NCBI GenBank assembly: GCA_905178155.1
Contig: CAJINV010000009.1
Coordinates: forward strand, 2,271,373-2,335,372
DNA from: Amoebophrya sp. A120
Taxonomy: Eukaryota > Protista > Dinoflagellata
Direction: 5' to 3'
DNA: 64,000 nucleotides
Part shown: positions 1,603 to 51,628 of the stretch, piece after piece
How positions within the stretch are numbered: the stretch's first letter is position 1
How the letters are laid out: each line of letters opens with the position of its first letter
Translations under genes and position numbers: made by a program
The notes under the pieces: model-generated
What the model saw: only the letters and a program-made list of their open reading frames with translations
The model's database searches: none
Told to the model about the DNA's origin: nothing

Positions 1603-3481
1603 TCACGCCCTTTCCAGCACTGCACAGAAGAAGCCGTCCAAACCCTTGGTTTGGGGCAGCGCATGTTTAGGTTCTTTAGACAAGTACAGCTGGTATTTCT
1701 CACAAAAGAATTCAATCTGTCTTGCGTTTTCCTCTGGCAAAATAGAATTAGTCATGTAAACAATCTTGCCTCCACCGCGGGTGGGAGTTTCAAGAGACGA
1801 CCCATTTGCGGCACTTCCATCCTTCCTCGGCACTCTCGCAGCTCCTCTAGTTGGGGACCTTACGTAAGGGAGGGCCTGGTCAAAGATTTCCCGCTGCCTC
1901 GCAATGTACTGCAAGAGCTTTTCCTCGCTAAAGGTGTACTTCATGTCTGGGTTTTTTCGCAGTGCGCCCGTCCCACTATTCGGCACGTCTAAGACGACCC
2001 AGTCGCACTTCCCCAAAAGTGTTTTGTTACTTGCCGCGAACGAAGACTTCGCTCGATTGAAGTGCAGCAGCGGATGGCCGGGCGGCAAAATTTGGTAGTT
2101 CTTGATTCCAGCCTTGCGAAGCCGCCGCCGCGCCTGCACGAGAGCCGTGTCTTTAACGTCGTGAAGAAACAATGCACCGGAATTTCGCATTTTTGGTCCA
2201 AACACCAGACTTTTGCCGCCCGCGCCCGCACAAAAATCGAGCACCTTTTGCCCGGGCTCGCAATCCACCTCGAGTCCCATCAGTTGCGAGCTCTCGTCCT
2301 GCAACTCGAAGTAGCCAGATCGTTTTTCCTCAAACAAAGCTTCCAGGATGGCCGCTTTCGTTTGAAAATGATGTAGTGTGATACCGAGCGGGCTGTGCTT
2401 CGCCATTTCGATCGTGTTGATCTCCTTCGCGAGAAGCAAATCATACACTTCCTGTCTCGACTTCTTCAGCGGGTTCACGCGCAGAAAGTACGTCGGCTTC
2501 TCGTTCAGAATGCGGCAAAGGTTCTGCGCTTTCTTCACGTGCGGGGCCGAAGCGCTGAGATTTGCCGGTGATGAAGGTGCCGATTGTGAGTAAACTGGCG
2601 TCGTGCGGCTTGATTTGGAGCTGGCAGATGGCCTGCTACTTTTCGTCGCCGCAAAAAGCGACTGTTGTGGAACTTCTTCGGAAGTGACGTCAGTAGCCTG
2701 CGTGGTTGCGCAGTAGTCGAACGGAGCCTCACTGCTCTCGTTATGGAGGCCGTTTCCAGGCCGACTTGATCTGTCATGGATGTTGCCTGGGGTGACGACA
2801 CGAACGTCATCCTCACGTTCTTCCACCTCGTCGCTTGTTTGTGCCGTGGGCGCTAGAGACAAGAAGCTGTTGGCTATGCACGAAAACAAGTAGTCTGGGA
2901 ACCCGCAAATTGCGGCGGGACTGAGTTTCCGCGACGCGAGCTGCTGGTCCTTCCACCGCTTGGACAGAAAGTAGGTTTTCATGCGATTGTGCCACAGGTT
3001 GTTGTTCATAAACTGTCCGCCGACCAGGTCCAGCATCCCCTTATCCAGGAAAAAACACCCATCTTCCCCATCCATTTTTTGCATGACAAATAGTGGAATT
3101 GATGCACGTAATTGGATGGGGATGGATGTTTTTTCCTGGATACCCCTTCCACCGAATCAGTTCATAAAAATGCTCGGAGATGAACCTCCGGTCCTCGCGC
3201 TTAATGCCCTTATGCGCCTTGAAATACCTCCGGAGAAACAAGTCTAGCGGGTAGGCGGAAACTGCTTGATGATGCGTGGTGGTTGATGCAGTCGACGAGG
3301 TTGAGGAGGACGAGCCGCCAGCGGTCAGATTTGGCATCGAAGATGGTGCTGTACGATTTTTATAACTACTGGCGCTTTGCACGTCTAGCATCTTCAGCGC
3401 ATTTTCCAAATGTCTTGCGCGGCTCGCGTTCAGGGAGCCTGTGATCAAACTTGTGGCCGCAGCTGGTGCGGAGGATGCCAT
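1603..3481 (-). CDS. RsmB/NOP2/Sun-family RNA m5C methyltransferase (2 exons, split by introner 3042-3142)
   Basis: Motifs LRVN, FELQDESSQL, VLDFCAGAGGKS, VLDVPNSGTGALRKNPD, IVYMTNSILPEEN, DGFFCAVL; ORFs 3041..3520 and 1603..3084 join as LIRWKG-MLDL after element removal. Confidence 0.9.
3042..3142. mobile_element. Introner / MITE-like non-canonical intron, 101 bp
   Basis: Ends TATCCAGGAAAAAACA / TGTTTTTTCCTGGATA; CCCCT duplicated at 3037-3041 and 3143-3147; removal restores the frame. Confidence 0.92.
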
Positions 3482-4218
3482 TTTGATTTTGATTTGGTCG
3501 CGAGGCGTCTCCTGTAGCAATCAAGTATTTACACTCAGAAAGCAGGATCTTAAATGGAAAGCAAGTTAAACAGTAAATTTTAATTTAAATGCTTAGAAAT
3601 AACAGACGAAAAAAACTTTTTAACGCTACACACGACGCAGCCATCGACCCGCCAGATCTTCACGCCTTCTTACTTATCGGCAGGGCAAAACCATGACAAA
3701 ACGAATGCAGCTGAGAAGCAGGACCTGCGATCTTGTTCTTGATCTTTGTCTTTCACTTCCATTCTGTATCTGTTCCTGCACCTGCTCCTGCTCTGTTCGG
3801 AAAATAAAAAACATCGGAGGAGAGGGCAAGGAACCAAGATCCCGCCAACCCTTTTGATGGAGCAAAACTTCTGTTTCTGTATCGATGTGGATCTCCGGAA
3901 TATTGCAGTCGGGCTTCTCCGATCTTGGTGACTTTCGAGAAAACTGTTCTTGCGGTCTGTCACAAAGGTGTAGCCCTGTTGTAGGTAGAGCGGCGACCTG
4001 TCCAGCTCAACTACATCAGGACGGGCAGGGCACGAAGCCAGAAACGCTCATTCTACGGCATTGCCAGTAACTCCAACACGCGTGATCCGCGATCGGGAAC
4101 GCAATCACCGCGTTGCAGCAAAATGTCTAGAATTGTTTTGAAAAAGTTGAAGAAGTGTGTGTCATGTCTAGCATTCCCCAAGCCGGTTTTTGTGGGCCTC
4201 CGCTGCGAGCTGCCTGTG

Positions 4219-5683
4219 CTACAGTTCGATATCCATGGTGAAGTCGTAATCAATAGTCGGGACGACAGAGGAGATGAACTTCAAGAAGACGAACAAAGCC
4301 AGATCGTGGCGCGGCTGTAGGCCCTGCTCCATCCAATCCCGAATAACCTTCTTCATCACTGCTGCGTGCTGTCATCGTTGAGATAAAAAACTTCCCGCAT
4401 TTATTGTATTTTCGAAGCATTTCGTGATCGGTGCATACAATCATTCGATTAGTACGCAAAAAAAGGTCTTTTGTAGTAAGTCTAAGTTATGTTCACTTCC
4501 TGTAGACTACCTTGCATGGATGTATGCTGCAGGTTGGCACGGCGGTGAGAGGATGTGGGTCAACCGTGACGGTTTTGCTATGGTACTCTGATAGCACATC
4601 CTGAAAAATCTCCCGGGACTCTAGTGGTCGGCCGTAGATGTCATACCTGCAGTACAAGAGTTGCAATGCGGCTGCGCAAAGGCAGTCGTGATTATATTGG
4701 TATCGCCTTGATTGAATTTATATCAAACCACGCAATTCAAAAGAAAAACGCAGGACTCGTCGATGCCTTACCCGAAGAGCCATAGCCTTGGTGTTTGGTA
4801 GTATTTGTCATATGTTATTGAGAGGTCGTAGGTGCGCAATTTGGTGGACTCCTTTCCGCTGTCCGGGAGTTCAAACCTAAAATCGATTTTGATTTTCGTT
4901 CATTTACAACTACTTAACTTATGCATCATGTGTGCTTTGGCGTATGGTTGGCATGAAATAAAGATCATGATCATGAGCCAAAAGGTGCGAATCAACACGC
5001 TTGTTACCCATCGTTTTCTATGTCGTCATCGTCATCCCCTGCCAGCATGTTATCCAAGTCTCCGAAATCCAGTTTCTCCGCCGCCTTCTGGCCCCCTTTG
5101 CTGCCGGTGGCCCCGGCGCCGCCCGGCTTGTCCTTGTCTTCCGTATCTGGCGGGAGGCACCAGTCTTCTGACATAGACAGTTTCTGCAGACTCGCATCTA
5201 AATCGCGTACCCTCTCGCGGCAACGGACGTTACCTAATATGAGGACGAAGATCTTCATGATGATCATGCCATCTGCACGATGCTACTAGCTGACGTAACG
5301 AGAGCAGGACTTGCTTCTGATTCTATTTCTAGAGGACATCATGATACAGTCCAAAATTTTTTCCCAGGTAAGCAGAACGACGAGGATTAGCACTTACAAG
5401 CAAAGAGATGAAAACCATCAATGCACAAAAATGTGAAATTCATACGCGTGATCAGGTATTGCTTCTCGTCTGGCAGATACCCCGCGCGATTTGCGGGCTT
5501 TCCCTTCTCCCACTGCCAGGACGGGAATTTGTAGCAGAGTTGGTCGCCAGCCTGTAGAAATTCCTGTGGTGTCAAAGTCCCCTCCTCGATGAACTTCGTT
5601 TCCGTCGGTACTGGGGTTACCGCTGCCACTCCGGCTCGCAGCGTGTCCCCGACTTTGTGTGCATACTCAAAGATCGAGTTCAT
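4219..5683 (-). CDS. ATG3: Autophagy E2-like enzyme Atg3, 5 exons with GT-AG introns
   Basis: Exons about 5683-5446, 5233-5008, 4876-4772, 4646-4511, 4368-4219 give [45 protein letters not shown], catalytic SIHPCKHA and [17 protein letters not shown]. Confidence 0.95.
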
Positions 5684-16880: not shown

Positions 16881-19800
16881 TCAGTTCTCTTTTACTTCCG
16901 GCTTACAGTCCGAGCTCGACCACGCTCCTTCGTCCACCTTCCTTTTCCGGCAGCAGGGTAGGAGCCGTGTCCCCGTCGGCGATCTCATGTTCAGCGCCAG
17001 CGACAGTCGACTGTACCCGGAATAAAAAGCCGCAAATTCGTCGCACTGGTTACAGGTAAAAAATACGCACCTCTACTTTACATCTTTATCACTCTCTTCA
17101 GGTTAACAAATTCACACAAGTGTCCGAACCTGCGCAATGCATCATCTCTCGACGCTCGCGTCCGGTATGGAGAGCGAATGTCATCCTCATCCGGTCAGAC
17201 ATAAAGATGTGCCTAAGAGTGTATTTTTTCAGGTTGTAAACTGTGTCAGAAACGCCAGATCCAACCACGCGCCTTGTTGCGCTATCAGCGAGATCCGATT
17301 TCGTTTCTTCTCGTGGTTATTCGCTGGGTCCGTGTGCTTTTTCACCGCTGTCGTTTCGGTGACGTTCAGATACTTTTGTCGAGCGGTTTTATGGAGGCGC
17401 CAGGATCGAAATCGGCGTCGAAGATTAGACAGAGCTCGCCAAAGTAACACGACAAAAGCAGTCTTCTCTCCTGCCCAGCCAGCGTCTCAGATTGGAGCTC
17501 GCTGCTGCCGAAATTGGTCAGGCACCACTTGAGGACTGGGCTCCCAGCACTGGCATCCATTATCATTTTACCCACTGCAAACTCTTTCAACTTTGTCAAT
17601 TGCGATCCTGTCTCTTCCATAGGCTTGCTCTTTCACGTATTCGTACGCGGCCGGAGAGTCGCTAAACACAAACCACTTCGGTTATGAGGCGGCCAGCTGC
17701 TAAGTGGGCAATTAGAGTCACTAAATAAGGAGCGCTGGGGCCCATAGGGCGACGAAGTACAGTGAGCACGCGCTCTGATCGGCCGGTGCAAAATCAGCTG
17801 GGGAGGCGGGTAGTTTGTTTCAGTAATTGCTAAAATAAAAGGACAAGAATTAATCGTGGCCATTTCATCATGCAAGGAGCCTTCAGGTCTACAAGAGCCA
17901 GGAGGATCACGACAGGGCCACAGCTGTCAGGGCTGCAGCGCCCGCAAATTGCGACTGTCTGACTGCTGCTTCGTGACACTCCTGCCTTCTTACCCTGCTA
18001 AATGAGACAGAGACTCCAGATTTTACTTAGCACTTCCTCACTTAGCAGGCGCTTGTCCTCCCCATATCGGTTTCTCTGCGGATGGTGCAGTCGGAGAAGA
18101 AGAGCCGGGTTTTGCAGGAGGGATTTCGGCTAGACTCGCCGCGCACCGCTCCGCCTCATCCAGCGGCTTCCGCCACGCGTTCCACTTTCGTTCAAATTCG
18201 TTCGAGTCACCCCCCGCCGCTCGTCCTCGTCCAAACCTCCTCTTCAAACTTTCCTGGAAGTCGTTCAGGCCTAACTTAAAAATGTCCTCCTCCGATTGGT
18301 AAATGCGGTTTTTGCCGAGGTTATTCGACGGCCAAAGTCTCGGATCGAGGTCCCCCCCGATTTTCCGGTCTTCCCCAATTTTCCCGGCAAATTTCTTCGC
18401 CAGAGCCGCGACTTCCTCGGCTGCGATGTGCTGGAACAAATGCAGGTTGGTGCCTAGGCGGAAATGCGAGCAAACCGTCTTACCTGGAGTGCCCCGCTGC
18501 AAGGTGGACGTCGACGACGCCGCAAACCCATACGCCTCGGCGTCTTTGTTCGCTTTCTCAACCAAAAACTCCCTTGGCCGAAAGAGAAAGTCGAATAGGC
18601 ACCGCACCAAGCATGTTCCATAGAGTTGAGAGGCAAGTTTTTCGTTCTCGAACAGGAGTAAGGAATTCGTCTGGATCTCGACCCAAGGGACGGAGGCGCG
18701 TGGATATTCCTTTTCGAAGGCGTCGAAATCGAGAAACTTGCCGATCGAGTCGACGAAGAAGGGACGGGTGGTGCGCGAAGTTGAAAACAGTCTTTCCGCG
18801 TCCACTGTCCAGTCGATGGCAGCCGGATTGAAGAATCGCTTAAACGTGTGCTGCCGGTCCCGAAGGAGAAACACCCGCCGAAGTTTGACAGCGGTGAGAA
18901 AGGCGGCGAGCCAGTATGGAGCAGGAGAGGAGCGCCCTATTGAAGATTATGATTCAAGTTCCCACCTTGAATAAAACATCTTCATCTTCACGACCACTGG
19001 GATTGTCTAATTTCAGTTGCACGCAAGACAAGAAAATGATAATTCCGAAAGCGCAACGTGACCCAGACCCGACCTGCCCTCTGTAGCTCACGATCGTCTT
19101 CAGACAAAAAGTACAGGGCGGGTAGTTCACAAGTTGTTCAATAAGGCATATAATATTCCCGCCCTTAACAGCCCCCTTGCGCGGTCGCCCAAGCCCCCAC
19201 CTCCGTATTCCGGTTCGCGCCAAACCAAGACTGGTGGCGCATCAACTTCTACTGTCTTGTCGTTTCGCGTCTCCCTCTGGCTCGCTCGGAGGTGTCGGAG
19301 TGCTGCTCCGTGCCACTGTGCATACTGGGCCAGAAATCGTCCTTCGTCCCTGCGGAAGAACTCGTCGCAGACACGGCATGTTGAAGATTTGTCCCCAAGG
19401 ACGGCGGAAGCGCTAATTTGCGATTGCCGCGGAAACGCTGCGTGCGTACGAAAAAAGGGGCAAAAGTCTTAGAATTGAACCTCCGTGTTAAGATAGAAGC
19501 AAGTTCGGACAGTTGGAAAGCTAGAGGAAAGCTAGTTCCGTTCGAGATGGAATCGACGTGGAAGCAACATCTAGCAAGGGCTTTCGCTCTTGGGCCATTG
19601 CGCGCAAGAGCTCTGGTTTGCGTCTGCCTCGTGAAAGAAAAGAACTAGCATCAACAGACCTAGCAGAAAGCGGCGGAAGGCTTCCGTCATACCCACCCCA
19701 CCGCATATTCATCAAATATCTTCGTTGATCACGATTTATTGGCTGCAACTGCATTTCAACTGTTTTCTATCCACTCCGTAGCTGTCACTCAACTGCAGTC

Positions 19801-20206
19801 TAACGCGGAGGCCCAATGCTTAAAAGTCCACTGCGTTACCGCCTCTACCTGCAGCTGTTGCGCTGGAAGATGATGGTGCTGCTTTTTGTTCATTCTCATG
19901 CAGCCGACAGTTTGGGCTCGCGGCGAGCCGGTCCCGAAACACCTTGCTGGACACGTTCCAGGGAAAAGCAGCCGGGCCGGATTTCTTGAACGACTCCAGT
20001 AACAAGAGAGCTTCAGCGCGACTATCTCCTGCTCCCGCGTTGGCGGTCGAGTGTACCGTCGTCCGATCGAAATCAAAGATAACTGTCCGCACCACGTCCG
20101 CTGCGCCTTTGCGACGTTTTTCTTGCCGCAATCGAGATACATTTTGTACGGTGTGAAAAATCCAAATTAGCCCTAATTCGCAAGCAACCAGGCGAACCGA
20201 CCACAT
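16881..20206 (-). CDS. Putative fucosyltransferase-like (GT-B; GT23/GT37-like) protein, multi-exon
   Basis: GGGLGDRARG (~19170-19200), CLFDFLFRP, CSHFRLG, AWLDLAFLTQ-CDEFAAFYSGYSRLSLAL; several junctions and the start are unresolved. Confidence 0.6.
17050..17239. mobile_element. Older, degenerate introner-like non-canonical intron with TTA...TAA ends, 190 bp
   Basis: ttacaggtaaaaaatac versus gtattttttcaggttgtaa (imperfect IR); flanks actgg/actgt; removal joins LTQ to CDEF in frame. Confidence 0.65.
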
Positions 20207-20553
20207 TTGTTTTGCTGCTTGTGCGAGGAGTTCTTATCTTGTCATCTCCTTGCACGAGGGGGCTGCTCTTCCGGATCGAGATAGATGCGCATCCTGAGCG
20301 ACGCCGCCAAATAACCATAGGCTCAGGCATGCGCATGCTCGTCTACCAAGATGAAGCTAGCAAGAGTCTCTACAGGTCGACGAGAGAGAGATGTAAACAA
20401 AAACGAAGAAATGCGGAGGGAACAACTGGCGCGAGCAAGTGCAAAAGGCTCGCCGTAAATTCTGTCAAATTCACATGCTCAGAGGTGGGCGATGCCTCGC
20501 TCTAGTAAAAAACCAAAACAGCGCTTGTGCTTGCTTCCGTCTTCTTGTTCTAT

Positions 20554-23500
20554 TCAGGGCGGCTTAACAACCTGCGCCAGCACTCCCGCAAAATTCACTT
20601 GAAGCAAGTATCGCAGCTCCTCTGCTATTCTCCAAGGACAAAGTGGGTTTCTCCGAAAATGCGTCTGTACGCGGTGGAGCAGTTCCGACCACACCGCGTA
20701 CGCCCTTGCTGTGGACCGCAGCAACACCGCAAATTCAGTGATTCTGACTTCTGACGCGCTATTTGCAGTTTGTTCCAGTACAGCAGCGTCAAAAATAAAT
20801 TTCTTTTCTTTAACTTCATCTTCTCCTCGAACTACAACTTGCGCTCCACTACTAGATCCTGGGCTCGGTGCGGAGTTCGCGTTTACCACACTTTTTTTGT
20901 TGTGAGCGTCAACGTCGTCGTGCAGCACACCAGCGCTGAGTCGTGCAATAGTTTCAGAGCTCGCCTTATTTGTTCCTGCTGATGAATGAAACCAAACTAC
21001 GACGGGTCGCCCGTCCTTCAACGCAGACGTAACGACCTGCAGCTTCGTCTTGATATCGCCGTTCTTACCTTCCATTTCATCAGTTTTCTTCAACTCGACG
21101 TCGACCACTTGCACTACCACGCGCCCATCTCCTGCTGCAGCTGTTGTTCGACTTACTTCGCCGCCTGAGGAAATTCTACTTTTTTCGCTTTCCTTAACCT
21201 TTTTCATCGGTTTCCCGTCCCAATCAAGTCTGGGTATTTTCCGCGGAAACAGGGATAGATCGAAATCTCCGCCGTGATCAGTTACTAGACTTGTCGCGTT
21301 GTTCAACGGCCACTGCATGACACCCACTCCCACGTTGGTGGACGATCCATAGTGTGTTCCCTTTTCGCGCCAGTGGGTGACCAACCCGGACTCGTCAAAC
21401 AGATCGAGGTAGAGGAAAAAGAGGTCGCGATCGGCGACAAAGTAGGAAACATGTTGCTCCCACATGTTGTAGCCGCTATCGGCCCACCACCCCGATGTCA
21501 CCAAACCGATCTTCTTCCCGTCGATTGTCGGAATGTTTGGCGGCTTCTCTAGTGTCACTTTCGGCCCACTGCCAAAAAGCAACAAGAACATTCGCACCGG
21601 CCAAAACCACCACTTCAATGGGTAGTGATTACGGTACAACAACCCGTCCCAAAAAGATTCAGTTCGGGAATGTGGAATTAAAGGCGGAAGCTCCTCGTGC
21701 ATCCAGTGCAAAAACACTTTCCACCATACAGGATGAGGCGAGAAGCCCTGCGTCCCTAGCTGGCGGTAGAGGAAGGGGAGCCCGCCCCTCGGATGCTTTC
21801 TCATCATTGCGCGGAGGGTGGTGATGGCGTCATTTGAAGGGCGTCGCTCAGCTTCAGAGTCCTGCTCGGAGTCCGCTCTTACTACGGAAGCCTCCGCTCC
21901 GCCGACGCCAACTTCTTCATCATATATCAAATCTGCATCGTCCAGTGCCACGTCGCCCTTTCGCACATCCCTCAGTACTATCAAATGTAAAAATGTCTGG
22001 GTCTGGAAACTTGTGATGCTGGGTGGCATCTCATGATGAGGCCACAAGTGCTGGCTCAGCATGACAAATTTCTGAGCTTGTAGGTGTTGCCTATTCTGCG
22101 TGACAATAAACTGCGTCTCCGCATGACAGAAAAATGCGGCTCTTGGGCAACGTGCATGACAGATTTAAGAGTCATGCCAGACAAGCATGACAAACATGCA
22201 TTCTTCCAGACCCAGACATTTTTACATTTGATAAGTACACCTCCAGTGCCATTTATTCCCACAAAGTTCGCGTTTTTCCGCACCGTTTTGTCCGTCGACA
22301 GAGGGACCATTCCCTGCTTGTTCAGGCAGATGCCAAACAGTCGGGCGAAGCCGTTTGCTGTGTCACCGTACACTTTCCACGCTTTCTTCAGCCACAGGTA
22401 AAACATCGGCGCAACCTCAAGGTCGTCCTCGAGAATTAAGACGTGCAGATTTTTGTCTCGCGGGTACCAGGCTCCGTACCAGCTGCGGGACGGTTTATCG
22501 TTCTGGCGGGCTTCGAAGTAGATCACTTTGCCCGAGCGCTAGACGCTCCGAGAGGCTCCGCGCGAGTCGGAGACCTGTTCCGGCAATGTGCGGAGAACAC
22601 AGGAATGCACGACCCCTCGCGCGAGCGAGAAGAGAGGAACCGCTGGGAACCGTCAAGGCGACGCTCCAGGAATTGACACCTAGAAGAAAAGACGGATAGC
22701 TGACGAAAGACAGCCACGCTGGCTTGAGCAGATGAACACCTTACCCCTTGGAGACGTCCGCCAGGGAGCTGTGGGTGGGATTTTTTTGAGAATATGAGGA
22801 TGAAGACGCTCCAGGACTGGAACCAGTGCTCGCGACTAAATATCGCTAGACAGCACCGTCGCGCTTTATGCGGTATGCGCGGCCCACCACGGACGAAAGC
22901 TTACTAGATCATAACGACACCAACGACGAGGCCGAAACCGAATCAGAGCGCTTCAATTCCTGGAACTCTAAACTGGCGCTACCAAACTACTTCGTACTTC
23001 TCAGAGCATAAAACCCACGCTGGGCGTAGTTCGGAACGACGCGCTTGGCAGACGTCGGACTCGGGGGCGACGGAGAAGATGTAGGGCTCGAGGTTGCAGC
23101 AGCTGCTGTCGCGGCTCTGCTCGTCGATCTGCTGGGTGGCCACGTCCATTTGTGAAAGACCTCAAGGATTTTCTCGTTCGGCTCTTCTCCCTCGCAGTGT
23201 AAAACCACGTCCACTCGGTCGGCCTTCGCATAAACCGCACGCGACAAACTGTGCAACAAACGCTGCAGTGGTTTCGCCCGGTTGTACGCGAGAATGTGGA
23301 CCTCAAAATCCGGCGGAAACTGTTTTTCTTGGTTCACGACCGTCTCGCGCAACCGAAACCGGTCTGGCTCTTCCACAAGAACGCTGCCGATGCTGGCGTC
23401 GCCGTCCTCGATGCGCCGCGCCGTCGTTCGGCCGGCGCCCTTGTGCGCAGCGTTGTCCCCCAATGCACTGATGTAAACGTTCTTCGTGGAACTTAAAGGG

Positions 23501-24102
23501 GAAGTGCTGGGAGATGATTCGGATGTCGTTGAAGACGCCATTATCGGTGAAGGCCCCTTCTTGTAGTTGTACCACTGCAGATGCGTCTGTAGGAACTCGG
23601 CATTTCGACGCACTAAGGCACCGTCGAGGTTGTTGAAGATAACGTCAACAGCAACGTAGTATGAGGGGGGGGCTTTTCGAGTTTCGCTTTAGACGAGGAA
23701 GCGTTCCTCTTTCAACTTCGACCAAGTCACTCTATGCATAGATCAGTAGAAGTTCTGCAATTATGCGCCATCGGATTTATACGAGTGCAATACTCTTGCA
23801 CAGGATAGCATCAGCCTAAGAAAGTAGGCCTAGCAAAAGACTGCAAACTTCGACCTTCTAGCAGATGAAGACCAGGTAGATCTAACGAAGAGGAAGGGCA
23901 CACGACTAGGTCAGTCTAGGTCCAATTGCCGGAGCCCCCATGAACAAAACTCGATCAGTCCGACATCCCGGCATATGTGCGAGCGGATCACCAGGAGTTC
24001 CAGCAGGACGAGGGAAGCAAAACCCGCCAGTGCCGCAGTTCGTTTCGTGCACACAGGCAACACTTTCCGTAAAACTCTGAGAAATGGAATAAAGCGCCGC
24101 AT
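20554..24102 (-). CDS. GT-A fold (GT2-like) glycosyltransferase, multi-exon
   Basis: ILAYNRAKPLQRLLHSLSRAVY, SWYGAWYP, LILEDDLEVAPMFYLWLKKA, FLYRQLGTQGFSPHPVWWKVF, HWREKGTHY; ORF 23911..24102 is a probable signal-anchor exon (inferred). Confidence 0.7.
21979..22233. mobile_element. Introner family A, 255 bp
   Basis: 30-bp TIR TATCAAATGTAAAAATGTCTGGGTCTGGAA; AGTAC duplicated at 21974-21978 and 22234-22238; removal gives GTGGVL-RDVRK. Confidence 0.95.
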
Positions 24103-25043: not shown

Positions 25044-28000
25044 CTACGTATACATGTAGCGGTAGCTTTCATTTGATTGCTGTTTTTGCGGCAAGAGCCA
25101 CTCTACATTTTTCCGCGTCAGCTTCACCGGCAGTGTGAGTTTGCGCTCCTTCTTCTTCTTTGATACACGACGGGATGAAGCAGAGGCGCTATGTCCGGCT
25201 TCGGTTGCAGGTGAAATAAAGGTCCCTGTTTTTGTATCAGCATGATCACCTTGCTCCTCGCTACTGCCAGCTGTTTCGTATTGCGTCCGACCGCTTCGGC
25301 TTTCCACAGTAAAAACCGCATCACCATCCTGGATTTCGTTGTCAGAAGATTGTTGGCCGTCCTCCGGATCCTCATCTTCATCTTCTTGCGTTGTGGTCGT
25401 CGCGACGCCACCCGCCTCGTCTCTCGACACACAACAAGATGCCGCTCCCGCTCCGCCTCCGGTGCCGTTCTGAAGACCCGCACAAGTTCTAGAAGAACTA
25501 CAGTGCTGAATCAGCCTCAACTTGTTCACTTTCAAGACGATGGCTTCCAGGGCTTGCTTTAACCCCCGAACCCCGCCGTCCTTGGAGCCGTGGTCCTGCG
25601 CAAGCCCATGCCGAAACGTGACGAAGCGCAGCTGGTCGAGATCTTCCAACAGTACGTCACCAGCATTCATGCCGACGTTCTTCAGCAAATCGGGCAACAG
25701 AAACTGCTGCGCGATTCGCAGCTGCTCTTTGGGATTGAACCCCTTAGTATTGATCACCGTCAACCGGTCGCGGAGCACCGGGTTCAGCTTGGTTTCATCG
25801 TTGAAGCTGAAAATGAACAGCGCGTTACTGAAGTCCAGCGGAACGCCGTCAAAGTAGCGGTCGGTAAAGCTCGCGTTCTGGCTGTGATCGGTCAAGTGCG
25901 TCAGCACCCCAACAATCTCCTCCCCACGGGGCGTATCAGAAACCTTGTCCAGCTCATCAAAAAAAATTATCGGGTCCATGCATTTGGTTTCCATCAGCAT
26001 ACCTGTTTTATTTCAGGGAAAAGTTCAAGATAAAAAAACAAAAAGTAGAAGTGGAAGAACATGATCAAATTTATAAAATTGAAATTAGAAAATATTCAAA
26101 TTAATTCACGAGGGCGAGCCGAGGGGCATACAGAGCTTGCATCAGATTCCCAGGGCAGACAAGCACCCACTACGTATGAGATTGTAAAGTGAAGACTCAG
26201 TACCAGCCAGGCGGCCCCAGGTGCTCCCCACGTAGGTGAAATGGTGTCCCTCGAGCAAAGCTGCGTCCGTGGCGCCTCCGAGCGAGATTTGTACAAAAGG
26301 TCGGGACAAGGCCTTAGCGATGCCTTTCCGACACAGTGTCGTCTTCCCATTCCCGGGCGGACCCTGGATTCCCAAGTTCAGGCACTGCGATTGCGGGTTG
26401 GCGATCCACTGGCATATCAGCTGCAGAATTTTCTCCTTCGCCTCGTCATGCCCGAACACAGCGGAGTCCAGCACGCTCTGTGTTTTTTGCAAGTACCTTC
26501 TGGTCTCGGCCTTTCCATTCGGGTGAAAAAGAACCGGAGGCGGCGTGAACTTTCCGAAGGGCAAAGCCAGTAAACCGTCGAGCCACTTCTTGGTCTTTTG
26601 TGCTTCGCCGGAGTTTGCGTCCACCTGCAGCGACTCCCACTTTTGTAGCGCGACCTGCTTCGCGCTGTCGGGCAAGCCATCCAAAAGAAGGATCCGAAAA
26701 CGGTTCGGAATGTTCTTCATGTTCTCCTGGAGCTCTGCGACACGCTGCACCTTATTTGCTGGCACAACACTGGAGCTGTTACTGCTACTCGAGCTACTTG
26801 AGCGCCCACCTATTCTGCACTTTCTCCTGCAGCTGTGTTTCTGATGAAGATCCGCCACCCCTTCATTGGAAGCGGAAGACGCACTGGCTGCCGTCCCATT
26901 ATTTGTCGAATGATCGGCGGAGCCTGAACAAAGACGATGTGGGTCTTCAACATCCTCGTCATCTGTCATCTCCTCACACACTTCATCTTCGTCTCCGAAG
27001 AAACTTCCTGTGTTTAAGAAACACGACGAGGTTGTCATTCTCTGCAGCTCTTTCAGCAAATGCTTCCTCCGGTCCGGATTTCTCAGGTTTTTCAAAAAAT
27101 TATCTTCCGTCTGGCTGAGACGATAGTCCAGCTTGCGCGTCTCCAAAATCTCCACCGCGATTGTAACGCGAGAGTTCCTGCTATCTTCGGTGAACGCTTT
27201 CGAAAGCCAGGATGCGCAGGAACTGTTCGTACTACTTGTGCCACGGCTACCAGGTCTTTTGAGGTTTGACAACTGATGCGACGTACTGGTAGCGGACGAC
27301 ATTTCGTCTTCAACCTTTGCGGCGGAGACGAACCCCCAGCTGTTTGACTTGTCGTGGAACTTTTCCAAGCGCTCGAAGCTGAGCTTTTTCCCCGAATTGC
27401 GGAAGTGGAACCTGCACTTCAGCTCCGAAAACTTCGGGGCTTCCAGGTAGAGCGAACACCATCCGTCTGCGGCGTCCGGCTTTCCGTTCAGATACAGCTT
27501 GAACCGCAAATCGTCGATCCCACCGAGCTATCAAATGTAAAAATGTCTGGGTCTGGAAGAATGCAACTTGTCATGCTGATTTTGGATTGTAAAAAAATCT
27601 GTATTGCATGAGCAGCAAAGAGAGTCCAAGTTTTGCTACACGGAAAGAGCATTTGTCATGCGGTATAGGCATCAGGTAGCCCTCACAACATCTGTGATGC
27701 TAGGGTATGCATCACAGACATCAGGAGTCATGCAAAACGTGCATGACAAACCTGGCAACCTTCCAGACCCAGACATTTTTACATTTGATACGAGCGAAAA
27801 ACGGTCGGAGAACATTGGCGTGTTCTATCAAAATGAAAAATCCCCCCTCCCCATATCAAACCGGAAACTTGTGATGCTGATTTGTGGCCACAAATCATCT
27901 TTGTCTTGCATATAGGGCCATAGGAGCCATCTGACGCATTCCAGAGCAAGTCTGTCATGCGCTTTCGACTACTGCAAACCTGTTTGCCATGCGCAGTTGC

Positions 28001-31000
28001 TAGCCTTCTGCATACCCAAACAGGCCCAGAAAATACCGCCAAGCACTTTCTACAAGACAAATCTGATTTGTGTACGCAAATCCAGCATCAGAGACTTCGC
28101 TTCGATATGGGGAGGGGGGATTTTTCCTCTCAATATGTTCTTCCCGAACTTTGCAAGTTTGTGACGCACGTTCCAAATGCTCCAGGTCGCCTGCAACTGC
28201 GGAAAGTATTCGTACTGCTGGTGACCTCCGCCGCCTCCGCTACTAGCCGCGGCCGCCTCGTGACTCTGTACCGTACTCACCTTCAGCTCCTCGTGTTCAT
28301 CGATTACGTCGAGAATCTCCACCGAAATCTCGACTTTGTCAGCGAATGCCGTCTCGCAATCCCGCTTGATTTTTCGCTGGATCGTCTTGGCCGCCTGTCT
28401 CGCCGCGAAACTCAGGTCGCTGCTGACAAACCGTGTGCGTGGTTTACTGGCCGCGTGCCTGGCCGTTGGGGGCGCCGAAGGCTCGGGTTGCGGTTGGTCG
28501 ACCACTGAAGTCGAGTCGTCCGGCGTGCTCATGCCACTATTGCCGCCGTCGTGGTTCTTGTTTTCGGCCGTCAAGCTCGCACACGTGGAGTTCGATGCAA
28601 GAGTCGTGCTTGCTTCCAAAACATCCTTCTCAAAACCTATTTTCGTTGCAACGTCAAGGTCGTGTACGCTGGCGACACTATCATGTTGTGTACCTCCAGT
28701 CCTGTGTTTTTCTCTACTTCTCGATCGGCTACTTGCTCGCTCAACTACATCTTGCTCTTTGTCCACACTGCGCCGACGTTTCGGTTTCTTTGTATTCGCG
28801 TATACAACGTACATGCGCTGGCCGCCGGCAGTCGGATCGTCTTCCATAACGACGACGGGTTTAATCGCAGGAGGCGATGCGGGTAAGTCCGAGTCGAAGG
28901 TGGACTGTCCTGTGGTGTCACATTCTTGCTCCCGAACGAAACTTGTCGAATTTGAGGAGCGAGTGGAACTTGGGCCAGAGGCTGTTGTTGAGGACACACA
29001 ACTCGTGACGTGCTCAGTCGTTTCTACTAGAGAACCTCGCAAATCGTCAGTCGTTGCGCTGACGTCGTTGCCACCTCCACCAGCTCCAGTGGCCGTCCAA
29101 AAGCGTTCCTGCTCCGTTCCTGCCCGCTCGCAATCGGTTGGCTGGATCTCATCTTGGAGCTCAACTCCCATACTGCTTTCCAACGTCTCCTGAAGTGCGT
29201 CGAGAGAATGCAAAACTTTCTCCGTTTTGCCTACCCGCAACTTCACTCGGAGCCGCGGTCTGTGACATCCCCTGGTCTTGCTTCGTATTAATCCTTTGGT
29301 TATCGCACTGTTATCGGAGGACGAGGTGGACGATGAGAAGTTGTGGACGAGGTCTTCTTGGTCGCAGAGCGCTGGAACTTCCAAAGCGACTCTGCACAGG
29401 CCGTGACCTTGTTGGCTCCGGTGACACCATGTAGAAGTGTCCGTCGCGTGCTTCCGACTGGAAGAGCTCGACGACGCACTGGATCTATTGGCATTGCTCC
29501 CTCCACACGTTTGACCTTGTAGTGTACCACCAACATGCAGCGATGGAGACGTCGCACTACCATCCGGACCTCTAGAACATCCCGGATTCAGCACCAATCG
29601 CAACCCTTTCATGCCGAACAAGGTGAAAGGCGGCGAGACCAGTTTCAGTTGGTCTTGGCTTGTTGTGACCACTTTGGGTTCTCTTGCGTCGCAATTGTTG
29701 ATGCCGCCATGAGTACCAGTTGCACCCGAGAAATCACTTTGCAGCTTGTCCTTCATGCCGTAAATGGTCCAGATGGCTTTTTGCTCCTGCACTATTTCGA
29801 CATACTGGTCAGGCGGAGAACAAGCAGTGGTGAATGCGTCTTCGTATGGCAGTTCGTGTGTGCGGCCACTGCAATTCGAGGGACCACGTGCGCGCTCCAC
29901 TTCTCTCTCGTCACAGCTTGAACTCTCGTTCTGCCGCACCGCTTCTGCAGCTCCAGAAACCCCACACGACGTTTGTGCACCTGCTGTTGTATCAGCAAGC
30001 GAGCTCTTTGAGTACCCGACCAATTGGTAGGGGCGTAACGACTGAGACTGCAGGCCCGGCGCTGCTCCGACCGTCTGTTGACCTGCAACATCTACTCTAC
30101 CTGAGGAAGCAACAGGACATGATGCAGACGACGAACTGCTGGATGACACACCAGCGGACAACGTACCGACCGCGCTGCCTGGAGGCACCCCCGCCCGGTG
30201 ATTCCCGGCGTTTTCTCCAATTCCGCTGGCTGAATGCGGCGGTGCGATATGCACATCGGAGCTTGAGGTAATTCGAACGCCAGGAGGCCTGGTGTCGTGA
30301 TGAACCACCTGCTGCGTCGTCCCCGCCTTTGCATCCGAAAAACCAGCACAGTCGTCCTCATCTTCGTGATCGGGCGTTGGCTTAGAGTACGTGCTGTTCC
30401 TTCCTATCTCCGGAACGTCCGTGCAGTTGTACGTGTTGTAATACTGATCGTAGTGTTCGTCATTTTGCTGGTGGTACGCGTAATCGCTCCACGCGAATTG
30501 GTGATGCTGCCCGTACTCGTTCTTGTAATCGTGCTCGTGGTACAGCTCCATGTGCGTATGATCGTTGTGTCGATCCTCCATTCCTCCACTGTATTTGCGC
30601 TCCACTACGGAAGTAGGCTCCTGCTGGAAGAACCTGCTCGTGTTGTACTGCTCATCGTGATGATAGCCAGAGCGAAAAAAGTTTTCTTTACTTTCAACAC
30701 TGGCAGCATCACGATCCGCGGCACAACTACTGCTCCCCGCGCGTGCCTGCATGGTAGGATCGTAAGCGGCACTCTTCGAAGATGTCGACGTCCCCACAGG
30801 CTGGTCTTCAATTATGGGCACGACGTCACTAGCCGACCCGCAGCGACTCCTGGCCCCCGGTACGAACGCCAGTGCGTCGGAGCTCATCAGGTGGGAGGAC
30901 GAGGACGCCGTCGCGGCCGCGGCCCTTTTGATAGAGGAGTTTCGCGATGTGGTGCTCAACGGACGGTCCTGCAAACTGCTTGCCTCCAGTAACATCTGCC

Positions 31001-44410: not shown

Positions 44411-45814
44411 TCACGGCTTTGGTTCATTTGGCAGGACACCCATAAATCCAGTTCCAGGTGCAGGCACTCCTGGGATCCCGGGCGGCGCAGGACCCCACAT
44501 TGGTGCCACCTCATGCGGAAGTCCAGTCGAGTTCTCCGGCGGACCTCCCCACACCATCACCGGAGTCTGGAGTAGATATGGATTGTCGCTTATGGTTATC
44601 GACGAAAAAAACAAGGCATATACTCCGCTACAGCTGCCAGCCGAAGCAAACACTAAAAACGAGCGAAAATCAATGACGAGACGTGGTAGAAATGGTGGGC
44701 AGGAAAAAAGTAACTGAACACATAAAGGCAAAGCTCAAAAAGGCTCTAGCTCTCGAGTATGTACCTCTGGCGGCAGCTTTGTGTCCGGGTACCACCCCGC
44801 GGCCTTTGCGGCGGCCTTCGATGCAGCAGCGAATTCTGCGGCTCCGAAGGGAGCGGGGACCTGCGCTGCAAAGTACTCCGGAGCGCCTTCTTCGGCCTGG
44901 ACTTTGTAGGCGTCCACACCCGTCACCGCGATTTCGTCTGGCGGCGCCGGCGTGACAAAACACGGCGTGACGGCCGGCACACCACCCCCGCACGGGATCC
45001 CGTACTCGGAAGTCTGCTCGTCGCACTTCGACACGCAGTCCAGCACCTTGGATCCGGCTTCCGGACCCGGGTTCCCCGCGCCATAGCAGGACACGGTGCC
45101 GACACCGCCCACCTCGCAGGGCCCACACGTGGACTCGGTTTGGCCGTTCAGGTCGTACTGGATCCACATGCACTTCGTTTCGGACGCGTCCCCCTTGCTC
45201 ATACACTGGTTCTTCGTGATCTGCTTATCCAGCACGTCCGTGCAGGGACTCACCTTCGTCAGTACCTCCTGGTGGCCGCACGCCATGTCGCACTTTACTA
45301 CTTTCTGCATCGCGAAGACGCTCTGCTCCGCCGGACACGGCACACTTGTTTCCCCGAAGGTGCAGGGAAGACACAGCGACGGCGCGTTCTCGAGCTGCAA
45401 GAACATGCAGTGTTGTGCGTTACCCACGTCCAAGCTATGGCGATGTCAACTATCTCAGCAGAAACGTTCTCAAAAATTTTTGGACCAGCACTTTTCTGGC
45501 CATACCATCGGGAATTAACAACGTTCTCAAACCATAAAAATTTTGAGAATCTTTTTGTTGAGATAGTTGACGTCGCCATACAAGCAGCGCTTCTCATCTC
45601 CATGAAACTGTGTGCATGGCGAGTCCGGTTCGGTCAGCTGCAACAGGTTGAGAACGGGAGCAAGATGGGCGTGGCTCGGGCTTCTTGCTGGAAGATGCAC
45701 CTCCTTAAAGAGTCGAAGTCCCAGGGCACCAACCACATGTTGAAGCAAATAGCTCAGCACAAAAGAAAGCGACTGAAAAAGTAGTCGCTTTTTCCGTAAT
45801 CCCACAAACGACAT
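44411..45814 (-). CDS. Cys-rich secreted protein with Pro/Gly-rich tail, copy 1 (complete 3' end, contains introner)
   Basis: ORFs 45527..45862, 44735..45433 and 44411..44731 are collinear with uninterrupted paralogue ORF 51888..52865. Confidence 0.75.
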
Positions 45815-46099: not shown

Positions 46100-46127
46100 G
46101 TGAATCGAACTCCTCCAATCTCATAAT

Positions 46128-46272
46128 TAATATCAAGCCACGCAATTCAAAAGAAAAACGCAGGACTCGTCGAAGTCTTAATACCCGAAGAGCCATAGCC
46201 TTGGTGAGTTTGGTAGTATTTGTCATATGTTATTGAGATGTCGTAGGTCCGCAATTTGGTGGACTCCTTTCC
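46128..46272 (-). pseudogene. ATG3: Atg3 exon-3/intron-3 fragment, frameshifted
   Basis: Matches about 4719-4857; 2-nt insertion (ggtgagttt versus ggtgttt) and an altered donor. Confidence 0.9.
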
Positions 46273-46280
46273 TCAAAAAC

Positions 46281-47769: not shown

Positions 47770-47825
47770 CCTTGATTTTCTCGTCTCTGCAATACCTGCT
47801 GTGCCTAGCGAAAAGTTGTAAGTGG

Positions 47826-48648: not shown

Positions 48649-48659
48649 GGTGTCCAGGA

Positions 48660-49345
48660 GCGGCAGCCGGCAGGCAGAGGCCAGGCAGGGGCGGTAGCCG
48701 GCAGGCAGAGGCCAGGGGCGGCAGCCGGCAGGCAGAGGCTAGCGGCGGCCGGCCGGCCGAGGCTAGCGGGAGCCGGCGGGCCGGGGCGAGCGGCAGCCGG
48801 CAGGCCGGGGCGAGCGGCAGCCGGCAGGCCGGGGCTAGCGGCAGCCGGCAGGCCGGGGCTAGCGGCAGCCGGCAGGCCGGCGCTAGCGGCAGCCGGCAGG
48901 CCGCAGGCAGCGGCAAAAAGGGGCCAGCGGCAGGCTGGGGCAAGCGGCAGGAAGAGGCTAGCGGCACGCAGGGAGAGGCCAGCGGCAGGAAGGGGCCAGC
49001 GGCAAGCGGGGGCCAGCGGCAGGGAGGCCAGCGGCAGGCAGAGGCCAGCATGCGAGCGGCAGGAAGGGGCCAACATCAGGTAGAGGCCAGCGGCAGGCAG
49101 CCGGAAGGCCGAGGCTAGCGGCGGCCAGCCGGCGGGCCGAGGCTACCTTGCGGCAGGCAGCGGCGGGCAGAAGCCAGCGGTAGGACTAGCGGTAGCCGGC
49201 AGGCAGGGGCTGGGGGGCGGCAGCCGGCGGGCAGAGGCTGGCGGCAGCCGGCAGGCAGAGGCCAGCGGCAGCCGGCAGGGGCTAGCGCGCGGCAGTCGGC
49301 GGGCTAGCGGCAGCCGGTCGGCAGACAGGCCGACAGAGAGTCGCC
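48660..49345. repeat. Very GC-rich degenerate tandem repeat, ~24-nt unit GGCAGCCGGCAGGCCGGGGCTAGC
   Basis: Directly visible; strongly T-poor on the plus strand. Confidence 0.92.
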
Positions 49346-49579
49346 CTGGCAAGCCGGAGCGGGGCAAGCAGCTGGCGCGGGTTTGTCACGAGCCGGCGCG
49401 CGAACGCGCACAACGCCCCCACTGACATCGGGCCCCCTGTCCCTGTCTCCTTGGAGTTTATTCCGCCACCGACTTACCGGTCGCAACCGACAACCCCAAG
49501 ACCAGGCGAGCCCAGCAGGGCTCGCCCCGAGGCTTGTTACAAATTATTTCCACTTTCAGGATTTCCATTCTGAGGCTGT

Positions 49580-51628
49580 CGCATCGGCTCCCAGATGAAG
49601 TTCGCCAGGGTGTCCTTCACGCCGTTCTCGATTATCAAATGCAAAAGTGTCTGGGTCTGGAAGAATGCAACTTGTGATGCTGCATTTGGATTCCAAAAAA
49701 ATCTGTATTGCATGAGTACCAAAGGGAATGCAATTTTTGCTACGCTGAGAAGGCATTTGTCATGCATACCCGACTGCACCTCATCAAAAACCTTTGCACC
49801 GTCGCCGCAAGCAGCTTCGGACGCAGGAGAGGCGTTTGTCATGCGGAATATGCATCAAGAAGCCCTCAAAAAATCTGTATTGCTAGGGTAGGCATCACAG
49901 ACATCATAGCTCACGCAAAACGTGCATGACAAGTGTCAGAATCTTCCAGACCCAGACACTTTTACATTTGATATCGATGCAGTCCACGCCAAACCACCGG
50001 GACTCCGTGCTGGAAGCGCCCGTGTGCTTCTGTCGGAGCTTGTTCATCACCGCGGTGTTCTTTGTCGCTCGCGCTCTTCACGATCATAAATGAGTCGTGG
50101 ATAGATCGTTCGGCCTCGTCGACAAACTGCTGAGCGCCTCCACGGATAATCAATGTTGCGGCCTTTGTGTTCTCGCAGTCTTTGAAGAGGTTCCACCTGT
50201 GATGTTGTATCAAGATCAACATGCTCAATCAATCAATAGAGCATGTTCTTGTTGACAAATAAAGTTGTGCTATGAAGATGTTGTGCTATGAAGATGTTGT
50301 GCGAAGACGATTTGCACGATGTGCAGCCGATTTTTTTAGCAGAAGACTTGGGAAAAAACCAAGACGATGCTGGAAAAGAATCATGACCATGAGCCTGTCA
50401 AACAAAACCATGTATCAAATCCTACCTCTCCGCTCCGATCTGCACCTCTTCAAACTTTCCACAGGATCCCAAGACGCTCGGGTCCAGCCCCACGGTAACT
50501 GTCGTCTGGACCGCCGCCCCAGTGGCGCGTCTCGTCCTGTCCAAATCGGCGTGCTCGACCCGGCCGGCGCAGAAAATGTCGCGGTCGGCGAAGTACTGGG
50601 TGGCGAGGTCGCCGATAGCGAGCTTGGAGAGGACGACGTTGGCACCGGATTCAGCGATGTTGTCCAGTTTCTCGTAGATGATATCTGTCGTGGGGATATT
50701 GTAATGCTTTAGTCGGAGAAGTAGACGACGATAGCGATACAGGAAGTGGGCAGTTGTCATCTTACATTATGCTTGCATCATAGAAGCCATAGGCTCTGGC
50801 TCTTCATTTTGTGCTGATCGATAATTGTAGAAGTACATCTGTTGAACAACAAACAAAAAGCTGCAGATCAATACTCCATTCCGCATCGACAATGGCCTGG
50901 AACTTGCTGGGGTCGGCGATTCTGATTTCTGCGTTGTCCTTTTCGCTCTTCAGTTCCAGCTCCAAGTTCAAAAGTAAGAATTTTGGCTTCACAGAGCTCC
51001 TGGGCTGCTGCTCGAAGCCAGCGTAGGAGAAGGTTTTCTTGAAGGCAACGCCATTGATCAGCGTGGAATCCATCACACTGCCGCCCGTGACCTGATGTTG
51101 AGTAGATGAAAGTTTTTCATTTTCTCTGGTGTTTTCAGTTATGCTCTCTTTCTTCTATCTTCGTGTTCTTCGTGCCACAGTTTATTACAGGGCCTGCGTA
51201 AAAGGCAACATCTGGTGCAACACAAATTCAACATTATAGATACCTTTTTGATTCCGATTCCTCGGTAGTCCAAGTCGTCGCCTAGAATCTGGATCGCGCG
51301 AACGACCATTTCGGAAAAGAATTCCTTGTAGTCAGCCACCAATTTTGAGTTCAGGGTCGTCTCCGCTGTTGTGTATTTAGAAAAGCAGGATGGAGATTCT
51401 GTTAACAGGCTGCAGAACGAGCGCCAAAACGCTACATGTAACGCCAGTGTAACAAAACCTTTGCACCAGATGGAGATTTGAAGCGACACGAAAAAAGAGA
51501 AATCCATGCAAAAAATCATACCGCATTTCCGCAGCATGTTTGTCTTCTCTGCCGGGTCTTTTGTGGACAAATCGATGCTGATGTCCTTCAATTTCTGCAG
51601 CGCCAGCTCTGCCGCTTTGCGGTAGAGC
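49580..51628 (-). pseudogene. CCT7: T-complex protein 1 subunit eta, truncated at both ends, with frameshift and internal deletion
   Basis: [106 protein letters not shown]; 4-nt insertion near 50072; VAGGG..FDA segment absent. Confidence 0.9.
49633..49973. mobile_element. Introner family A, 341 bp
   Basis: TIR TATCAAATG(C/T)AAAAGTGTCTGGGTCTGGAAGA; TCGAT duplicated at 49628-49632 and 49974-49978; removal gives VDCI-ENGVK. Confidence 0.95.

What the first reader, a model, noticed from the sequence alone, without database searches (positions are those of the whole stretch)
3037..49978. Exon-invading TIR elements (TAT...ATA, exact 5-bp TSD) that act as non-GT-AG introns
Seen: six elements (3042-3142, 21979-22233, 27529-27790, 27826-28135, 45436-45580, 49633-49973) from four TIR families start TAT, end ATA, have a perfect 5-bp duplication and lie in coding exons. 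Removing the element plus one TSD restores the frame each time. Sliding the junction through the sense-strand TSDs (AGGGG, GTACT, GCTCG, GAACA, GCTTG, ATCGA) never gives GT-AG. Known: IR/DR-flanked introner elements are described in Amoebophrya; to my knowledge their splicing mechanism is unresolved. Inference: non-autonomous DNA transposons removed from RNA by a hairpin-guided route.
Basis: partly seen in the sequence, partly recalled or inferred. Interest (0 to 1): 0.85.

Follow-up and report, generated by a model that had tools for sequence, protein, structure and literature searches.

The report
Amoebophrya transposon introns with offset cut
These are the already published hairpin-ended transposon introns of the marine parasite Amoebophrya A120: the three tested copies are missing from spliced transcript assemblies together with exactly five extra bases and without GT-AG ends, and older copies point to a likely fixed cut one base before and four bases after the element, likely made by a loosened spliceosome.

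Summary
All six elements are real: TAT...ATA inverted ends, exact 5-bp duplications, four families. The genome is Amoebophrya sp. A120 (99% and 97% protein hits), whose introner elements are published (Farhat 2021). Spliced contigs of four runs (one sample) lack the three tested elements plus exactly one duplication copy; nearby in-frame GT-AG alternatives are not used. Two more are supported by homology or an empty paralog; the sixth lies in a truncated, frameshifted CCT7 copy. Seven further non-GT-AG introns showed up in the RNA. The four informative ones with drifted duplications share one cut register: intron = N-TAT...ATA-NNNN, putting U-A at +2/+3 like this genome's GTA donors (one junction fixes it exactly; chance of a common register about 0.1). 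In a related assembly, families lie in both orientations with unbiased target sites, so the signal is in the inverted ends; a G-U wobble test found no RNA-level selection on the hairpin (88 vs 94). No transposase was found. The class is already known; the fixed 1+4 cut is not in the papers read, but this scan noted it before on other pieces of this genome. The catalyst is untested.

The parts
3042..3142 (-). 101-bp TIR element, 5-bp duplication (sense AGGGG), in an RsmB/NOP-type methyltransferase gene
   Evidence: net-zero removal aligns best to 5 homologs; junction not among the 15 of 75 joints shown, so not RNA-tested
21979..22233 (-). 255-bp family-1 TIR element (sense GTACT)
   Evidence: joint 21973-22234, skip 260, 4 of 4 runs
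27529..27790 (-). 262-bp family-1 TIR element (sense GCTCG) in an AAA-domain gene
   Evidence: joint 27523-27791, skip 267, 4 of 4 runs; in-frame GT-AG option (skip 264) not seen
27826..28135 (-). 310-bp TIR element (sense GAACA); leaves a 30-nt exon between it and 27529
   Evidence: joint 27820-28136, skip 315, 4 of 4 runs
45436..45580 (-). 145-bp TIR element (sense GCTTG); filled site of a duplicated gene
52584..52588 (-). Empty site: single copy of the 5-bp target in the paralog 51639-53109 (96-98% identical to 44495-46100)
   Evidence: joined copy and paralog differ at 2 of 65 bases, none at the junction
49633..49973 (-). 341-bp family-1 TIR element (sense ATCGA) in a truncated, frameshifted CCT7 (TCP-1 eta) duplicate
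49580..51624 (-). CCT7 fragment: residues 129-504 of the 573-aa A120 paralog P0122, about 406-462 missing, four GT-AG introns
17390..17621 (-). Additional TAT...ATA element, duplication with one mismatch; cut 0-2 nt before TAT
   Evidence: joint 17384-17622, 4 of 4 runs
17683..18066 (-). Additional TAT...ATA element, exact duplication
   Evidence: joint 17677-18067, skip 389, 4 of 4 runs
18911..19168 (-). Decayed non-canonical intron, TAA...ATA ends; cut 1-2 nt before the end motif
   Evidence: joint 18910-19169, 4 of 4 runs
22492..23011 (-). Decayed 520-nt non-canonical intron with no repeat left: begins T-TAT, ends ATA + 4 nt; fixes the 1+4 register; partly retained in one contig
   Evidence: joint 22491-23012, both=0, 3 of 4 runs; X4 contig covers 22858-23655
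23656..23976 (-). Decayed TAT...ATA intron; cut 1-3 nt before TAT
   Evidence: joint 23655-23977, 2 of 4 runs
17045..17239 (-). Non-canonical intron with TTA...TAA ends (register not fixed: 5 placements)
   Evidence: joint 17044-17240, 4 of 4 runs
19462..19821 (-). Non-canonical intron with TTA...TAA ends and intact 5-bp repeat (8 placements)
   Evidence: joint 19461-19822, 4 of 4 runs

Best explanation
These are small TIR elements of Amoebophrya A120 that sit in exons between two copies of a 5-bp target and, where tested, are absent from spliced transcripts together with exactly five more bases; they were likely inserted as non-autonomous DNA transposons and are likely cut out by a loosened spliceosome at a likely fixed register, one base before the opening TAT and four bases after the closing ATA. 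Steps. Shown: anatomy; exact removal of element + 5 nt in RNA-type contigs while the DNA run is continuous; no GT-AG use; empty paralogous site. Inferred (about 0.95): insertion by a cut-and-paste-type transposase or integrase with a 5-bp staggered cut; the enzyme was not found. Inferred (about 0.7): the register 1+4; because 1+4 equals the duplication length, the mRNA keeps bases 1-4 of the upstream copy and base 5 of the downstream copy, so any insertion site and either orientation is repaired to the base. Inferred (about 0.6): the 5' end N-U-A is read like this genome's GUA donors with +1 relaxed, and the 3' end is measured from the closing A-U-A or stem base instead of an AG; end-to-end pairing likely helps bring the ends together but is not shown to be under RNA-level selection.
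For: RNA joints at exactly element+5 for 5 of 5 intact-type TAT...ATA elements in the laid stretch, 4 of 4 runs each; the same runs splice 7 GT-AG introns, and DNA run X1 is one unbroken piece over 11552-22002. All four informative drifted junctions keep a+b=5 and allow a=1 (sets 0-2, 1-2, exactly 1, 1-3); simulated chance of a common register 0.096, of a common register at a=1 0.017. 10 of 10 RNA-seen non-canonical introns allow N-T-A at the start, and 11 of 11 canonical donors examined are GTA (7 RNA-seen; 4 by homology). Farhat Table S4: all 9 predominant A120 non-canonical ends are NT-NN, all 9 in A25 TT-NN. Nearly all spliceosomal proteins and U2, U4, U5, U6 are reported in A120, U1 not detected. 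In a related assembly: both orientations in 8 of 8 families, target-site composition like the flanks, lengths spread over all three frames (41/39/34), GT-AG at the 1+4 register in only 4 of 114.
Against: Only one junction fixes the register exactly, and it is the intron with the weakest stem (z -0.8); 0.096 is not strong. All RNA is Logan contigs of one sample, labelled 'RNA?'; no raw reads of this organism were available (X9, X10 gave no test). The two TTA...TAA introns fit either N-T-A (0+5) or a pure stem ruler (1+4), so donor mimicry is not separated from a ruler. Published NT-NN ends may partly reflect how the aligner places an ambiguous junction (3' AG/AC are over-represented in the family table). 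No AG, no conserved branch motif was found at the 3' ends (inspection only). Nothing here tests the catalyst. Farhat describes the sites as variable relative to the hairpin.
Confidence: 0.55

Rival explanations
1. A separate, non-spliceosomal machine (endonuclease plus ligase, or a euglenid-like route) recognises the base of the TIR stem and cuts with a 1-nt 5' and 4-nt 3' overhang, releasing a linear or circular RNA.
For: No AG or fixed 3' dinucleotide; orientation-blind; the outermost T at +2 and A at -5 fit 10 of 10 RNA-seen introns in one register; 9 of 10 keep an end-to-end duplex, 0 of 7 canonical; the weakest-stem intron is the one with partial retention; Euglena uses an analogous spacer code N3-CDG / CHG-N5-6 (PMC12501133 abstract and discussion); U1 not detected in A120.
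Against: No G-U excess on the sense strand (88 vs 94; 41 vs 44 elements; duplex more stable on sense 60, less 60); stem pairs 4-7 are Watson-Crick in only 71-99 of 134; the register lands U-A where canonical donors have it.
Confidence: 0.3
2. No fixed register: the machinery cuts anywhere inside the direct repeat (or at variable distance from the stem) and joins by repeat alignment, as the published description allows.
For: Intact duplications make 6 placements indistinguishable; Farhat reports variable sites; chance of a common register among four is about 0.1.
Against: 22492-23011 has no repeat at all yet is cut at the 1+4 geometry; 18911-19168 has 1 shared base and 23656-23976 has 2, so the repeat is not needed.
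Confidence: 0.1
3. The joints are artefacts (template switching of reverse transcriptase across the hairpin at the direct repeat, or empty-site DNA alleles), and the elements are not spliced.
For: Strong hairpins flanked by direct repeats are known substrates for template switching (own knowledge); runs are 'RNA?' by guess; no direct RNA reads.
Against: Joints without repeats show the same geometry; depth over the 17390/17683 and 19461 introns equals what flanking exon alone gives (table 2); removal is needed for frames of 637, 823 and 1780 codons; DNA run X1 shows no fork at these sites.
Confidence: 0.04

Closest known systems
Introner elements / non-canonical introns of Amoebophrya sp. A120 (Farhat et al. 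2021, PMC7789003; sections 10, 11, 16 and supplement part 3 read)
   Same: Same organism; inverted repeats starting TAT + 7 nt + A-run, 3-5-nt direct repeats over the borders, about 240-nt mean length, non-GT-AG ends, no transposase inside.
   Different: Nothing in kind. The paper leaves the splice position variable or unknown; here it likely reduces to 1 nt before and 4 nt after the element, the repeat is dispensable in old copies, and both orientations occur.
A120 introner families in Gozashti et al. 2025 (PMC12130899; passages and 22 of 58 A120 rows of Dataset file 8 seen)
   Same: Mostly classed 'TIR DNA, superfamily unknown', many 150-320 bp, mixed GT/AT/NC ends.
   Different: No family was matched by sequence here; no cut rule is given in the rows seen.
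Euglenid nonconventional introns (Nomura et al. 2025, PMC12501133, abstract and discussion; review PMC11282704 section 6)
   Same: Paired terminal motifs at fixed spacers from both splice sites, longer 3' spacer, TSD-like repeats, suspected MITE origin, unknown machinery.
   Different: Motif CDG/CHG at +4 and -6 to -8 versus TAT/ATA at +2 and -5 to -7; purine needed after the 3' site in Euglena, no such bias seen here; circles reported in Euglena, untested here; unrelated lineage.
Fritillaria borealis non-canonical introns and canonical TIR introners of Aureococcus/Micromonas (as described in PMC11282704, PMC9860276 passages, PMC7789003 section 16)
   Same: MITE-derived introns with TIR and TSD; Fritillaria ones are removed by an adapted spliceosome.
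   Different: Those have preferred ends (AG-AC/AG-AT, or GT-AG partly recruited from the TSD); here the target site carries no signal.

Membership tests
Amoebophrya A120 introner elements | Host is Amoebophrya A120 | tested here: met
   P0121 99%, P0122 97%, both named A120; best RsmB hit A25 46%
Amoebophrya A120 introner elements | Inverted repeat starting TAT, 7 variable nt, then an A-run | tested here: met
   Met by 5 of the 6 elements; 45436 has TAT but only two A at positions 13-14; consensus A at 11-15 over 134 related elements; definition
Amoebophrya A120 introner elements | 3-5-nt direct repeat over the exon/intron border | tested here: met
   exact 5 bp in 6 of 6
Amoebophrya A120 introner elements | Removed from RNA at non-GT-AG ends | tested here: met
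   3 of 3 tested; 3042, 45436, 49633 not RNA-tested
Amoebophrya A120 introner elements | Repeated in the genome | tested here: met
   3 family-1 copies in the window; summed DNA contig depth above 160,000 on its ends versus about 28 on unique DNA, and raised at 3042 (not a copy number); 45436 has no second copy in the window
MITE / non-autonomous class II TIR transposon | TIRs, fixed-length TSD, no coding capacity, empty site, both orientations | tested here: met
   (222 exact 5-bp duplications)
MITE / non-autonomous class II TIR transposon | Cognate autonomous element or transposase with the same TIRs | tested here: inconclusive
   No whole genome held; 8 long TIR pairs in window + 131 loci, a 2.9-kb one without Pfam hit in 6 ORFs; 0 hits in viral contigs
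U2 spliceosomal intron | GT (GC) ... AG ends | tested here: not met
   0 of 6 by sliding; RNA joints
U2 spliceosomal intron | Lariat intermediate, dependence on U2/U5/U6 | not testable with these tools
   needs lariat sequencing or depletion
Euglenid nonconventional intron | N3-CDG ... CHG-N5-6 | purine signature | tested here: not met
   ends are N-TAT ... ATA-N4
Euglenid nonconventional intron | Excised as full-length circle | not testable with these tools
   no raw reads of this organism

The most novel reading that the evidence does not exclude
Amoebophrya A120 runs a second splicing code, N-TA...TA-NNNN, whose 1+4 spacing equals the 5-bp stagger of its resident transposase, so that any insertion, in either orientation and at any site, is erased from mRNA to the base; and the cut is made by a dedicated machine other than the standard spliceosome that measures from the element's ends, convergent with Euglena.
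Probability: 0.28. Interest if true: 0.85.

Novelty: already known. Interest (0 to 1): 0.42.

Why it matters
The elements themselves are published. What would matter is the cut rule: more than 60% of A120 introns are non-canonical and their borders were left as unknown. A fixed 1+4 register turns an unexplained mass of splice-site pairs into one code, explains why thousands of insertions in exons are harmless, allows correct gene annotation, and gives exact positions to mutate or to probe for lariats or circles, which makes the open question of the machinery directly testable. No statement of this register was found in 4 literature searches or in the parts of 6 papers read; figures, Roy et al. 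2023 (seen only as a reference) and subscription journals were not seen.

Tried and rejected
Whole-genome search: no genome held, so no search for a transposase or snRNAs. No RNA holder is listed on record; X9 and X10 (raw RNA, same species label) did not show this organism's genes and are no test; X9 held only 92 reads on one TIR. Including the DNA run flooded the joint table (15 of 75 shown), so 3042 stayed untested. A purine at sense TSD position 1 in the window's elements looked like a signal but vanished in the larger set (61 of 114). Enrichment of target sites that would create GT-AG at the 1+4 register: none (4 of 114). G-U versus A-C asymmetry: none at 10, 15, 20 or 30 pairs; singleton substitutions TIR 30:20 versus interior 104:125, p=0.085. 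Reading the register from the 20 one-mismatch duplications of the related assembly by DNA alone: mismatches spread evenly (4,4,3,5,4) and could not be polarised. For 3042 the top homology score (1149 vs 1139) was a net-zero cut one base outside the duplication, a single L-for-M difference, not taken as evidence. Autonomous element: L068:7257-10196 (2.9 kb, 3042-family ends, inside an exon) has ORFs up to 219 aa, 0 Pfam hits in 6 scanned; the 871-aa ORF in the L034 pair gave only a weak PH hit; ORFs in the other long pairs were not scanned and several look like pairings across two short elements. Viral contigs: 0. Rfam on the window: 0. A 31-aa CCT7 piece was too short for the PDB search. A stem-energy scan for more decayed introns gave many chance candidates, some inside RNA-confirmed exons, and was dropped.
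Full report
Observation. All six elements are at the stated coordinates with TAT...ATA ends and exact 5-bp direct repeats; 16-20 of the first 20 bases pair with the other end. A blind scan for inverted ends with a flanking repeat found five of them (27826 fails the strict limit), while four shuffled windows gave 16 hits in all and none with a 5-bp repeat. A relaxed scan added 17390-17621 and 17683-18066. All host frames are on the minus strand. Removing element plus one repeat joins long frames at five of six; sliding through the repeat never gives GT-AG. In-frame GT-AG pairs do exist just outside the repeat at 21979, 27529, 45436 and 49633, which made the RNA test necessary.

Organism. A CCT7 exon hits two proteins named Amoebophrya sp. 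A120 at 99% and 97%; the methyltransferase gene's best hit is Amoebophrya A25 at 46%. Farhat et al. 2021 (PMC7789003; sections 10, 11, 16, passages and supplement part 3 read, figures not seen) describe A120 introner elements whose inverted repeats start with TAT, seven variable bases and an A-run, with 3-5-nt direct repeats; 65% of introns are non-canonical, U1 was not detected, and the splice position relative to the hairpin is called variable or unknown. The finding is that class.

RNA test. No run on record as RNA holds the stretch; four runs guessed to be RNA (X3-X6, one sample, contigs only) do. They splice ordinary GT-AG introns, so they behave as RNA. Over 16700-28400 all 14 joints were shown: three are low-depth joints inside elements from other copies, one is canonical, ten are non-canonical. 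The three reader elements are skipped by 260, 267 and 315 bases, exactly element + 5, in 4 of 4 runs; the GT-AG alternatives (263, 264) are absent, though contigs drop rare forms. The joined transcripts have open frames of 637, 823 and 1780 codons. DNA run X1 is one unbroken piece over 11552-22002. The other three elements were not RNA-tested: at 3042 a net-zero removal aligns best to five homologs (1139-1149 versus at most 1096); at 45436 a 96-98% identical paralog has the empty site with one copy of the repeat; at 49633 exact removal matches the full CCT7 paralog one-to-one (1265 versus at most 1196), but this copy lacks residues 1-128, about 406-462 and the C-terminus and is frameshifted before the element, so it is probably a pseudogene.

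Where the cut falls. With an intact repeat six placements give the same mRNA. Introns whose repeat has drifted narrow this. Let a be the intron bases before the opening motif and b those after ATA. All four informative TAT- or TAA-type junctions have a+b=5; allowed a is 0-2 (17390), 1-2 (18911), 1-3 (23656) and exactly 1 (22492-23011, no shared base, joined directly in two long contigs). The common solution is N-TAT...ATA-NNNN. If each intron chose its register independently, a common one would arise in 0.096 of trials and one at a=1 in 0.017, so this is moderate evidence resting on one exact junction. It puts U at +2 and A at +3, as in 11 of 11 canonical donors examined, and agrees with the published predominance of NT-NN ends in A120 and TT-NN in A25, which may partly be an aligner effect. 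Two TTA...TAA introns fit either reading. The repeat is therefore a by-product of insertion, not the splicing signal.

Larger sample. Their relation to this genome beyond shared element families is not established and they have no RNA test. 222 TAT...ATA pairs of 578 with at least 16 of 20 matches have an exact 5-bp repeat. Of 334 non-overlapping elements, 134 allowed a host strand call from a frame of 200 or more codons across the junction; 200 were dropped. Among the 114 with exact repeats the target site resembles its flanks, lengths cover all frames (41/39/34), and only 4 would be GT-AG at 1+4. All 8 families of 4 or more members (104 of 134 elements) occur in both orientations relative to the host (13:24, 10:8, 12:5, 1:8, 4:3, 2:4, 3:3, 2:2). 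Signals must thus lie in the symmetric ends, and spread by DNA insertion fits better than reverse splicing.

Is the hairpin the guide? For: end-to-end duplexes are significant in 9 of 10 non-canonical introns (z -2.2 to -12.4) and in 0 of 7 canonical ones, and the one weak case (z -0.8) is partly retained in an X4 contig. Against: mismatches that give G-U on the sense strand are no commoner than those giving A-C (88 vs 94), sense and antisense duplexes are equally stable (60:60), and pairs 4-7 next to the cut are often broken. Residual pairing in old copies may simply be left-over TIR.

Mobiliser. Gozashti et al. 2025 class most A120 families seen (22 of 58 rows) as TIR DNA of unknown superfamily and mention one family with LTR-integrase-like homology.

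Mechanism. Most likely (0.55): a 5-bp-stagger DNA transposon whose ends give a loosened spliceosome a donor-like N-U-A and a 3' site measured four bases past the closing ATA. Rival (0.3): a separate stem-measuring machine like that suspected in Euglena. Variable cutting inside the repeat (0.1) and artefact (0.04) fit poorly. The catalyst cannot be tested with these tools.

Verdict. Real, already published as a class. It was not found in print in the searches made; figures S19-S25 of Farhat and Roy et al. 2023 could bear on it and were not seen. Interest 0.42.

Noticed in passing
window 5234-5445 (-): A canonical GT-AG intron that begins G-TAT and has ATA at -7 to -5, i.e. the 1+4 geometry; may be an old element turned canonical or chance (duplex z -1.0, no repeat).
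   Followed up: partly
window 44495-53109: Patchwork of duplications: 44495-46100 repeated at 51639-53109, 3669-4472 at 47826-48632 (87%), 4715-4857 at 46125-46272, a GC-rich tandem array at about 48650-49330, and a truncated CCT7 copy between them.
   Followed up: partly
window 50057-50070 (-): The CCT7 copy has a deletion of about 57 codons with a frameshift at a short repeated stretch; the public gene model P0121 reads through it in the shifted frame and also removes the 49633 element.
   Followed up: partly
window 10369-10585: Nested palindromic array built on a short XbaI-site-containing unit, with raised DNA contig depth; unexplained repeat in an intergenic region.
   Followed up: no
window 25044-27527 (-): AAA-domain gene resembling (from memory) Lon-type proteases of large DNA viruses, at the 3' end of a 1780-codon frame that carries two elements; only weak Pfam AAA hits were obtained.
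   Followed up: no
run X9 on window 22202-22233: A 2026 RNA run that shows none of this window's genes has 92 reads with the family-1 TIR and one foreign flank, so the same TIR exists in that sample.
   Followed up: no
L068:7257-10196: 2.9-kb element with perfect 3042-family ends and exact 5-bp repeat inside an exon, filled with nested repeats and no long ORF; if spliced, the system handles kilobase cargo.
   Followed up: partly
window 21979-22233, 27529-27790, 49633-49973: Family-1 interiors carry several copies of a CATGAC/GTCATG hexamer in both directions (5, 4 and 3 copies), possible transposase binding sites.
   Followed up: partly
whole window: Nearly all long frames and all RNA-seen introns are on the minus strand, as in the unidirectional gene clusters reported for Amoebophrya.
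   Followed up: no
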